A DNA stretch of 58,651 nucleotides, counting the filler, from Dugesia japonica (lineage: Eukaryota): NCBI GenBank assembly GCA_001938525.1. It is 5 parts of 5 records of this genome, joined end to end, with 100 filler letters (N's around TTAATTAATTAA, not from the genome) between each part and the next. Parts side by side here need not be neighbours in the genome. Positions count along the whole stretch, not along the records: positions 1 to 14,612 come from MQRL01528054.1; 4 more parts are not named here. One strand, written 5' to 3'. Shown here in pieces: positions 12,645-14,612 of the stretch. Numbering within the stretch: position 1 is the stretch's first letter; each line of letters starts with the position of its first letter. The notes below the pieces were generated by a model that was not told where the DNA came from, did not search any database, and worked only from the letters and a program-made list of their open reading frames with translations. The position numbers and the translations under genes are program-made.

Positions 12645-12936
12645 AGTAGTATGTAAAAAGGCGGGATTGCCACCCCCATCCCCATGGCCCTAAAATTTGA
12701 AAAAAACGAGGAGTGGGGCTCGGGGTGAAGCACTCCCGCGAAAAATTGAGATTATGAATTATTACAGAAAAAAGTAAAAAAAAAGTGCATAAAAAGTGCG
12801 GTGGGGGGTAGGAAAATTATAACAAAATTGACCTGTAACTTGTAGATTGTAGCTTATTGTCGAACTTGGACAAAACTTGACGAACTTGGACGAAAGTAGA
12901 TTTTTTAAGAAATTTTTCATTTTTTTCCTTTAGAAA

Positions 12937-13590
12937 ATGGGAGATAATTATAGATTAAATGAGAATGGGAATTATACTGGATTGAATATGAGAGATCAAA
13001 TTATTTTGAGTAAATATATTGATATTATAGGTGTAGATTTATCAATTAAACCAAATGAAGCAGCAACAAGGATTGGAATTAGTACAAGAGAATTGAATAA
13101 AGTTTTACGAAAAAAGAATATTTTAAAATTAGCGACAAAGAAAAAATCTATTCCTAAACGATTTACTTATGATAATGTGAAAGATGTACTTATTCCTGAT
13201 AAAGATGGGTGTTATTATAGAAAATCTAAACAAAGACCATTAGAATTTAAACCAAAAAAGGAAAAGATTTCAGTAGAAGAAAAAATAAAACTAGAAAGTG
13301 AGGAAATGAAAAGTAAATTAATTGGAGCTTTTCATGATAAAATTCAATATCCTAATCTTGATCCAACTAATTATAGAAATTTATGTAGAGAAAAGACTAG
13401 AGAATTTAAGGGTGGAGCAATTTCAGAAGAAGATATAAATGATGAGAACATTGAAAAAGAATTAAATAAACTAAATATTGGAAATAATGTAACAAGTGGA
13501 ACAAGTGGAATCAGTGGAAACGGAGAAAAACTTACAACAAGATTAATAAGAAATTCAAGTCAATTAGATATGAGTAGTGATTTTAGTTAA
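12937..13590 (+). CDS. Polinton-associated protein with N-terminal HTH-like motif, 217 aa
   Basis: Intact ORF; IKPNEAATRIGISTRELNKVLRK fits an HTH pattern; homologous by eye to 47687-47884. Confidence 0.65.
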   Translation: MGDNYRLNENGNYTGLNMRDQIILSKYIDIIGVDLSIKPNEAATRIGISTRELNKVLRKKNILKLATKKKSIPKRFTYDNVKDVLIPDKDGCYYRKSKQRPLEFKPKKEKISVEEKIKLESEEMKSKLIGAFHDKIQYPNLDPTNYRNLCREKTREFKGGAISEEDINDENIEKELNKLNIGNNVTSGTSGISGNGEKLTTRLIRNSSQLDMSSDFS

Positions 13591-13710
13591 AGGTTTCTTG
13601 AAAAAAGATTTCTTAAAAAGTTTATTTAATAAATAGAACAAGAAGATTTTTTAAAATTAGTAAGACAAGATAAAATATTTTGCAAAGGAGTTGGTAAAGA
13701 TTTAAAAATA

Positions 13711-14010
13711 ATGGTAAACAATTTTGATTCGTGTACAACTGAAAATGAAAAGAAACTGTTGGAATGTATTAAAAATTTATATTTATCTAATCGAATTTAT
13801 AAAAAAGCATATGAGAGAAAAAGTAAAATAAAAAAAGTAAAATATAATTATGAAGAAGAAATAAAAAATATCAAAGAATTGTACATAATAAAAGAAAATA
13901 ATAAAACAGAACATTATAATTCAAAGATTAAAAGAATTAAAGAAAATAATAAAAAGCAAATTATAAATAGTTTGAAAAAAGATGAGGAATTCTTTGATAA
14001 AAATCTTTAA
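13711..14010 (+). CDS. Lys/Glu-rich coiled-coil-like hypothetical protein (Polinton-associated)
   Basis: 99-aa ATG ORF packed between neighbouring ORFs; no recognisable motif. Confidence 0.45.
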   Translation: MVNNFDSCTTENEKKLLECIKNLYLSNRIYKKAYERKSKIKKVKYNYEEEIKNIKELYIIKENNKTEHYNSKIKRIKENNKKQIINSLKKDEEFFDKNL

Positions 14011-14026
14011 AAAATACCCATAAGAA

Positions 14027-14271
14027 ATGACTGAAGAAAGTATTTCAAGTAATTCTAGTATATTAAGTAATATAAGAGAGGGGATGGAAAAATTATTTAA
14101 AAAAGAAAAAGTGAATAAAAAAAAATATCAAAAAGCAATAATAGATTTAATGGGGGAAACGAAATGTTACAAGTATATTATTTTTACTTTGGTGGGAGTT
14201 ATAATACTAACTATAATTTTAATTTTTTACCATCGAATGAAAATAATTAAATGGATAAATAAATTTTATGA
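14027..14271 (+). CDS. Small single-pass membrane protein; 3' end lies in an N gap
   Basis: TM-like IIFTLVGVIILTIILIFY followed by basic HRMKIIKWINK. Confidence 0.5.
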
Positions 14272-14451
14272 NNNNNNNNNNNNNNNNNNNNNNNNNNNNN
14301 NNNNNNNNNNNNNNNNNNNNNNNNNNNNNNNNNNNNNNNNNNNNNNNNNNNNNNNNNNNNNNNNNNNNNNNNNNNNNNNNNNNNNNNNNNNNNNNNNNNN
14401 NNNNNNNNNNNNNNNNNNNNNNNNNNNNNNNNNNNNNNNNNNNNNNNNNCA

Positions 14452-14612
14452 TTTCAATCATTACAAAACACTAATCCATTAGATATTGGTAATGCGAAAA
14501 TGTATTTTAGAATAAGTTTTAAAAATATAAAAAGTACGACAACATTAGAAAATGATTTCTTTCCAGCTTTATTTTCTCAAATGAGATTAAAAATAGGATC
14601 AACTTATATTGA
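14452..14612 (+). CDS. Fragment of a Polinton-type major capsid protein (N-terminal region)
   Basis: Open frame not in the ORF track: FQSLQNTNPLDIGNAKMYFRISFKNIKSTTTLENDFFPALFSQMRLKIGSTYI, resembling the L.NNF...LFSQ..L..G...I pattern of Polinton double-jelly-roll capsids; both ends in gaps. Confidence 0.6.

What the first reader, a model, noticed from the sequence alone, without database searches (positions are those of the whole stretch)
12645..14612. Apparently intact end of an endogenous Polinton-like virus inserted into a Gypsy gag
The Gypsy gag stops abruptly at AGTAGTATG (Polinton termini typically begin AG, often AGT repeats). A GC-rich TIR-like segment follows, then four packed, intronless, undisrupted frames: HTH-like, coiled-coil, small TM protein and capsid-like. 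Unlike the surrounding decayed elements, no premature stops are visible in the sequenced parts, suggesting a recent or active element. The terminal gene set is not the canonical integrase/pPolB arrangement, so it may be an undescribed lineage.
Basis: partly seen in the sequence, partly recalled or inferred. Interest (0 to 1): 0.72.

Follow-up and report, generated by a model that had tools for sequence, protein, structure and literature searches.

The report
Left end of dormant Polinton copy
This is one end of a virus-like jumping element (Polinton/Maverick) inserted into an older broken retrotransposon; it is one of many related copies in this animal's genome, and it is likely a young but already decaying, silent copy rather than an active virus.

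Summary
The element is real and ordinary in kind. Position 12645 is a true terminus: 139 family termini in the genome, and 11 of 11 other Gypsy copies run straight through the site. Sister contigs carry the same three terminal genes, then double-jelly-roll capsid, PLA2-integrase fusion, A32 ATPase, protease and pPolB at the far end. Two sister insertions show paired TIRs and 6-bp duplications. So it is a Polinton/Maverick, Alpha-adintovirus-like. 'Intact, recent or active' is overstated: ORF2 lacks its start codon, the capsid is a 53-codon fragment at a contig end, about 1% of sites are private (8 non-synonymous, 2 synonymous), no partner TIR was found, and four RNA runs gave no read at 95% identity or more. 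It is younger than the Gypsy (6-7% private). ORF1-2 have no database relatives; ORF1 has an HTH and a conserved protease-like GG site, possibly a virion core protein. The scan earlier noted Polinton ends in this genome and the PLA2-integrase fusion in another.

The parts
11861..12644 (+). Decayed Gypsy-type gag remnant (host of the insertion), two CCHC zinc knuckles at about 12500-12613
   Evidence: Pfam zf-CCHC E=2e-11; 11 stops in the frame; 39 other genomic matches at 82-88%
12639..12644 (+). Candidate left copy of a 6-bp target-site duplication; right copy not found
   Evidence: 6-bp TSD shown only for two sister insertions; right-junction searches negative or chance
12645..12860 (+). Left terminus and terminal inverted repeat (about 215 bp or a little more), one extra base in the terminal motif
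   Evidence: Many genomic matches start at base 1 and end near base 214; sister TIR pairs 162/164 and 270/279 identical; exact 17-mer unique
12861..12897 (+). Short subterminal 10-bp repeats before ORF1
   Evidence: Seen in the sequence; function not tested
12937..13590 (+). ORF1, 217 aa: N-terminal helix-turn-helix (weakly KilAC-like), basic core to residue 160, variable acidic tail
   Evidence: Model pLDDT about 90 for residues 11-60; HTH matches Z up to 6.3; Pfam ANT in 13 of 31 members, best E 9e-4, below cut-off; dN/dS median 0.36
13405..13416 (+). Conserved hydrophobic-K-G-G motif in ORF1 (residues 157-160), candidate maturation-protease site
   Evidence: GG in 29 of 31 aligned copies, at the border of conserved and variable parts; cleavage inferred, untested
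13633..14010 (+). ORF2 frame, 125 codons, three long helices; no start codon at the family start position in this copy
   Evidence: dN/dS median 0.61
14027..14271 (+). ORF3, small protein with one predicted transmembrane segment; runs into the N gap
14272..14449 (.). Assembly gap, 178 N
14452..14612 (+). Fragment (53 codons) of the double-jelly-roll major capsid gene, cut by the contig end
   Evidence: 50/53 identical to a sister protein that scores Pfam DJR-like_dom E=2.9e-18

Best explanation
The stretch is the left end of a Polinton/Maverick element (Alpha-adintovirus-like) sitting in an already decayed Gypsy gag, likely placed there by the family's retroviral-type integrase and likely silent and drifting since. 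Shown in sister copies: AGTAG termini, TIRs of 200-280 bp, 6-bp TSDs, and one-strand gene order ORF1-ORF2-ORF3-capsid-(ZnF-PLA2-integrase)-ATPase-pX-like-unknown-putative penton-protease-two unknowns-pPolB. Inferred from Polinton and adenovirus biology: an excised linear genome is copied by protein-primed pPolB from the TIRs, packaged by the ATPase into double-jelly-roll capsids, matured by the cysteine protease at GG-type sites, and reinserted by the integrase. ORF1 is most likely a DNA-binding protein of this cycle, either a packaged core protein trimmed at its GG site (about 45%) or a regulator binding the TIR. This copy could not complete the cycle as assembled: one gene has lost its start and no right end is found.
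For: Terminus and flanks. Empty Gypsy sites 11 of 11. TSD pairs among 55 termini, each joining an ORF1-side or short end to a pPolB end; empty-site check clean in 5 of 7 for one pair. Same gene order on all 9 contigs examined as far as each reaches, apart from ORF3 undetected in 2 and extra pPolB-end pieces before ORF1 in 2. Pfam DJR, rve, PLA2, Pox_A32, DNA_pol_B_2 above cut-off. Purifying selection between copies. Private sites 10/983 against Gypsy 19/269 and 13/210; 8 non-synonymous to 2 synonymous, neutral share 0.81. Junction contigs at low depth (7.8 and 4.4), unbroken over 118 bp of TIR, which argues against an identical partner TIR. 27 reads, none at 95% identity or more, of about 47 million RNA records.
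Against: The 10 private changes are too few to reject continued selection (P=0.19 at omega 0.36), and some may predate insertion. The assembly has 648,594 contigs, so a missing right end may be an assembly gap. No housekeeping gene was laid as a control on the RNA runs, only 6-25% of each run was read, and the tissue is unknown. Core genes are seen only in sisters, not in this copy. Protease hits are at or below Pfam cut-offs, and the penton assignment got no hit. The window's own hexamer fits the family target preference poorly. ORF1's P4 residue here is F, outside the strict adenovirus consensus.
Confidence: 0.85

Rival explanations
1. The copy is complete and very recent, and the family is still mobile; the right end is only missing from a fragmented assembly.
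For: Only about 1% private change, no stops, 0/133 private TIR columns; sister TIR pair 162/164 identical; most ORF1 copies open; Polintons are de-repressed on PIWI knockdown in a planarian (PMC8532177, passages).
Against: ORF2 start lost and a near-invariant ORF2 residue changed; nearest relative 92.5%; unique terminal 17-mer; unbroken TIR contigs; same junction in runs of 2014 and 2025; no RNA.
Confidence: 0.1
2. The junction is an assembly chimera joining a Gypsy piece to a Polinton end.
For: Fragmented short-read assembly; several sister contigs show odd terminal arrangements; no right junction found.
Against: Independently assembled contigs of two runs from two studies span 12585-12762 with 0 differences; the break falls exactly at the family terminus.
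Confidence: 0.02
3. It is a different kind of element (non-Polinton virus or TIR transposon) that only borrowed a capsid gene.
For: ORF1 has no hit in 5.8 billion proteins or, as a profile, in 1.84 billion representatives; ORF2 has no convincing Pfam or Atlas hit.
Against: The same ORF1-3 are linked on single contigs to capsid, integrase, ATPase, protease and, on one, pPolB; the same termini flank pPolB ends.
Confidence: 0.03

Closest known systems
Maverick/Polinton elements (PMC8097293, passages)
   Same: AG-starting termini, TIRs, 6-bp TSD, intronless genes for pPolB, integrase, ATPase, protease, major capsid; most copies are degraded fossils.
   Different: Vertebrate elements have two gene modules and (AGT)2 or (AG)3 ends; this family has all genes on one strand, ends AGTAGA, and three left-end genes with no database relatives. 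PZ, PW, PM homologues were not tested.
Alpha (Mayetiola-class) adintoviruses (PMC8502044, passages and section 3.1)
   Same: pfam03175-type PolB, rve integrase, packaging ATPase, adenain-like protease, DJR capsid, PLA2 domain, pX-like protein (pX likeness recalled, from no call).
   Different: PLA2 is fused to the integrase rather than to a pX-like tail; the pX-like motif is in a separate ORF; no chromodomain detected on the integrase; OTU domain and penton not confirmed.
Sf Maverick 1 of Spodoptera frugiperda (PMC5803895, passages)
   Same: Tandem small ORFs plus POLB on one strand; PLA2-bearing gene.
   Different: PLA2 ('CAP') and integrase are separate ORFs there, and that integrase has a chromodomain.
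Unnamed PLA2-rve fusion proteins in public assemblies, including Nymphon striatum 'F54H12.3-like' proteins
   Same: 82 of 120 listed hits carry both PF08398 and PF00665; best 50% identity; GG before the PLA2 motif in 54 of 64 scored.
   Different: The GxG motif between PLA2 and integrase was found in only 13 of those 64, against 7 of 7 in this family; genomic context unseen.
Adenovirus protease substrates such as pVII and pre-mu (PMC4246237, passages)
   Same: ORF1 is basic, predicted to bind DNA and has a conserved motif like (M/I/L)XGG-X.
   Different: No sequence or fold match to them was found; ORF1 has an HTH; only 17 of 31 copies fit the strict P4 rule.

Membership tests
Maverick/Polinton | Terminal inverted repeats starting AG | tested here: met
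   Family: two left/right pairs 97-99% identical. This copy: left terminus only; partner not found.
Maverick/Polinton | 6-bp target-site duplication | tested here: met
   Met for two sister insertions, one checked against empty sites; not testable for this copy, whose right end is missing.
Maverick/Polinton | Protein-primed family B polymerase | tested here: met
   DNA_pol_B_2 E=7.5e-18 on a contig that also carries ORF1/ORF2 homologues, and 3.9e-23 next to a TIR match; sisters only.
Maverick/Polinton | Retroviral-type (rve) integrase | tested here: met
   rve E=1.2e-9 above cut-off in a sister; catalytic residues not checked one by one.
Maverick/Polinton | Packaging ATPase | tested here: met
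   Pox_A32 E=9e-8 and 4e-8 in two sisters.
Maverick/Polinton | Double-jelly-roll major capsid protein | tested here: met
   DJR-like_dom E=7e-20 and 3e-18; window fragment 94% identical to one.
Maverick/Polinton | Adenovirus-type cysteine protease | tested here: inconclusive
   Peptidase_C5 E=2.6e-4 and 8e-4, 21.2 and 19.5 bits against cut-off 21.3; likely, borderline.
Maverick/Polinton | Minor capsid protein (penton) | tested here: inconclusive
   Conserved ORF before the protease has no Pfam or meaningful PDB hit; not folded.
Alpha adintovirus | pfam03175-type PolB and PLA2 gene | tested here: met
   PF03175; PF08398 E=6e-8.
Alpha adintovirus | N-terminal OTU-like domain on PolB | tested here: inconclusive
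   No Pfam OTU hit; a Cys...His spacing is visible; no profile-profile test.
Alpha adintovirus | Integrase with C-terminal chromodomain | tested here: not met
   No Chromo hit at E 0.01 on the one full 484-aa sister protein scanned. So it is called Alpha-like, not filed as a member.
Alpha adintovirus | Hexon clustering with the Mayetiola reference | not tested
   Reference sequences not fetched.
Intact (potentially active) Maverick as defined in PMC8097293 | All core ORFs open, both TIRs, TSD | tested here: inconclusive
   Only 2 kb of the copy is assembled; ORF2 start lost; partner TIR and TSD not found.
KilAC (ANT) domain proteins | Pfam PF03374 above cut-off for ORF1 | tested here: not met
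   13 of 31 members at E up to 0.05, best 9e-4; 14.8 and 18.7 bits in two members against cut-off 25.3.

The most novel reading that the evidence does not exclude
This genome hosts an undescribed, very large Polinton lineage with all genes on one strand, whose left end carries a private three-gene module. Its first gene would be a new kind of HTH-based virion core protein trimmed by the element's protease at the same GG signal that frees the PLA2 and pX-like pieces, and the integrase would be delivered as a packaged PLA2-integrase polyprotein.
Probability: 0.3. Interest if true: 0.55.

Novelty: new member of a known kind. Interest (0 to 1): 0.3.

Why it matters
The locus itself is one fossilising copy among many and matters little. 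The family is more useful: hundreds of diverged copies with mostly open frames allow selection and protease-site analysis of Polinton genes of unknown function. If ORF1 is a protease-matured core protein, it would name a DNA-packing component of animal Polinton particles and give a cheap peptide-level test of whether these elements were built as virions.

Tried and rejected
Right junction of this copy: three pattern searches gave a satellite repeat (19 matches, 10 loci read), one chance hit and none. ORF1 homology: nothing; Foldseek PDB and BFVD had no E below 0.001; Atlas scores 0.76-0.77 are leads only. ORF2: Atlas 0.81, uninformative; its model was not fold-searched. Four contigs with inward-facing termini 210-356 bp apart were tested as mini-elements: no TSD in 4 of 4, arms alike only about 33 bp, two abut a pPolB end; rejected as likely assembly artefacts. 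A seeming head-to-tail pPolB/ORF1 junction (L085) has the pPolB piece on the opposite strand beside an N gap; a similar 74-bp piece ends contig C469354; not pursued. TATATA flank matches were dropped as simple repeat. No RNA holder was listed (not evidence). Summed contig depth of 5000-6500 over the capsid piece was not used as a copy number. Literature searches for a PLA2-integrase fusion, KilA in Polintons and planarian Polintons showed no description of this lineage in the passages read; Repbase and the genome maps in the supplements of PMC8502044 were not seen and may hold it. Host taxon was not tested.

Full report
Setting. Window places 1-14612 are contig C528054 of an AT-rich 854-Mb assembly in 648,594 contigs. 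The finding is the last 2 kb of that contig; what follows 14612 in the window is a pack joint. Earlier scan notes call the host a planarian; I did not test this.

The boundary is real. A search with 12645-12930 gave 39 matches from 33 candidates, the best non-self at 87%. Of 14 other contigs matching from the boundary, 12 start AGTAG and two have variant starts; flanks are unrelated except one shared pair. A family terminal pattern has 139 matches against 0 for its control. The upstream DNA is a Gypsy-type gag with two zinc knuckles and 11 stops in 314 codons. 11 of 11 fetched copies of that Gypsy continue past the site with no element. Contigs from two runs of two studies cross the junction with no difference.

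What the element is. ORF1 has 152 matches (150 of 751 candidates scored), 36-91% identical apart from itself; a sister capsid protein has 110 matches from 96 scored of 8,924 first-look candidates. On nine longer contigs the order after ORF1 is the same as far as each reaches: ORF2, ORF3 (undetected in two), capsid, PLA2-integrase, ATPase, pX-like, unknown, putative penton, protease, two unknowns and, on one contig, pPolB in three broken frames, all on one strand. Pfam confirms DJR-like_dom, rve, Phospholip_A2_4, Pox_A32 and DNA_pol_B_2 above cut-off; Peptidase_C5 is borderline; the putative penton has no hit. The window's last frame is 50/53 identical to that capsid. Of 57 termini, 14 lead into ORF1, 12 into the end of pPolB and 31 are unclassified; the tally includes this copy, one locus twice and three odd contigs. 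Among 55 termini with flanks, two pairs have complementary 6-bp flanks and TIRs 162/164 and 270/279 identical; for one pair 5 of 7 empty host sites show the hexamer once. These are the hallmarks listed for Mavericks in PMC8097293 (passages). The PolB type and PLA2 point to the Alpha adintovirus side (PMC8502044, passages and section 3.1), but no chromodomain was detected and the OTU domain and hexon clustering are unresolved.

How intact and how old. At columns where six close relatives agree, this copy differs at 10 of 983 sites in ORF1-3, 1 of 142 in the capsid piece and 0 of 133 in the TIR. The Gypsy flank differs at 19 of 269 (six relatives) or 13 of 210 (eleven). The 10 changes are 8 non-synonymous and 2 synonymous, matching the neutral share of 0.81, though too few to exclude the family's selection (P=0.19); no stop among 10 neutral changes has P about 0.47. 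ORF2 has no start codon where its sisters begin. About 120 of 150 listed ORF1 matches have no stop (my count), so an open frame is not special. The nearest relative is 92.5% identical. The terminal 17-mer with its extra base occurs once, right-junction patterns failed, and run contigs are unbroken over the first 118 bp of TIR at low depth, which an identical partner TIR would be expected to break (inference). Four RNA runs (6-25% of each read, about 47 million records) gave 27 reads at 88% likeness or more, none at 95%, most only partly aligned and A-rich; no control gene was laid. In a planarian, Polintons are piRNA targets (PMC8532177, passages), which would fit silence if the host label is right.

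The terminal genes. Between copies, median dN/dS is 0.36 for ORF1 (78 pairs) and 0.61 for ORF2 (45 pairs), so they were real genes of replicating elements. ORF1 has no relatives in large protein collections. Its model is confident for three helices at residues 18-59 that match generic HTH domains (best Z 6.3, rmsd 1.9, 47 aligned; a common arrangement); Pfam KilAC is weak. ORF2 is three long helices; ORF3 has one hydrophobic segment. An earlier scan note suggested protease processing of the PLA2-integrase protein. Following that lead, ORF1 has hydrophobic-K-G-G in 29 of 31 aligned copies, exactly where conservation falls from 0.67 to 0.27. GG also precedes PLA2 in 5 of 5 copies that include that part and precedes the pX-like motif in 4 of 4, and [MIL]xGxG separates PLA2 from integrase in 7 of 7, while capsid, ATPase, putative penton, protease and three copies of an unknown ORF have no GG. 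The adenovirus protease cuts (M/I/L)XGG-X and (M/I/L)XGX-G with relaxed P4 (PMC4246237, passages); 17 of 31 ORF1 copies fit strictly, and this copy has F. I therefore read ORF1 as a likely packaged DNA-binding protein trimmed on maturation (about 45%), with a TIR-binding regulator as the alternative; neither is shown.

Novelty. The PLA2-integrase fusion is not private to this family: 82 of 120 listed database hits have both domains, and the scan noted it in another genome. I found no description of it or of this lineage in the passages read after searches, but Repbase and supplements were not seen. Papers seen as passages only: PMC3671162, PMC11071296, PMC5803895, and those cited above. Verdict: a genuine, young but decaying left end of a Polinton/Maverick copy; new member of a known kind; interest 0.3.

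Noticed in passing
Flanks of 55 family termini: Palindromic target preference within the hexamer: A at -5 in 29, pyrimidine at -4 in 39, purine at -3 in 43, T at -2 in 29 of 55. The window's own hexamer fits only at -3.
   Followed up: partly
L039:5683-6303 (C592537): A histone H3 coding piece (Pfam Histone E=7.5e-19) is in frame with an unknown element ORF; insertion, capture or misassembly.
   Followed up: partly
window 13296-14087: Contigs in all 4 DNA runs join across a 790-bp skip (21 letters on the short side), suggesting an internally deleted relative.
   Followed up: no
L092:560-2024 (C599967): ORF2-ORF3 pair duplicated in tandem.
   Followed up: no
L125 (C284931:1037-1176): Two termini face outward around a 104-bp near-palindrome; fold-back or artefact.
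   Followed up: no
L108, L122, L123, L124: Inward-facing termini 210-356 bp apart without TSD; likely assembly artefacts.
   Followed up: partly
window 49115-49534 (+), 45214-45519 (-); L043:2316-2996: Integrase (rve E=3e-9) and a fragment resembling pPolB (recalled; no Pfam hit) of what look like other Polinton families; capsid matches near 50% identity also point to further families.
   Followed up: no
window 17952-18371 (+): Intronless-looking NIF/FCP1-type phosphatase frame (Pfam E=6e-21) in another stretch of the pack.
   Followed up: no
window 5630-6586 (+): 319-codon Cys-rich open frame with a hydrophobic start and no Pfam hit.
   Followed up: partly
window 10386-11001 (+): Broken frames resembling a hAT transposase (recalled motif, untested).
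   Followed up: no
L051-L060: A tandem repeat with a unit of roughly 30 bp that matched the junction pattern by chance.
   Followed up: no
L085:480-920 (C603367): Long array of short GTAG-rich repeats near a family end, with an inverted pPolB end piece beside an N gap.
   Followed up: partly
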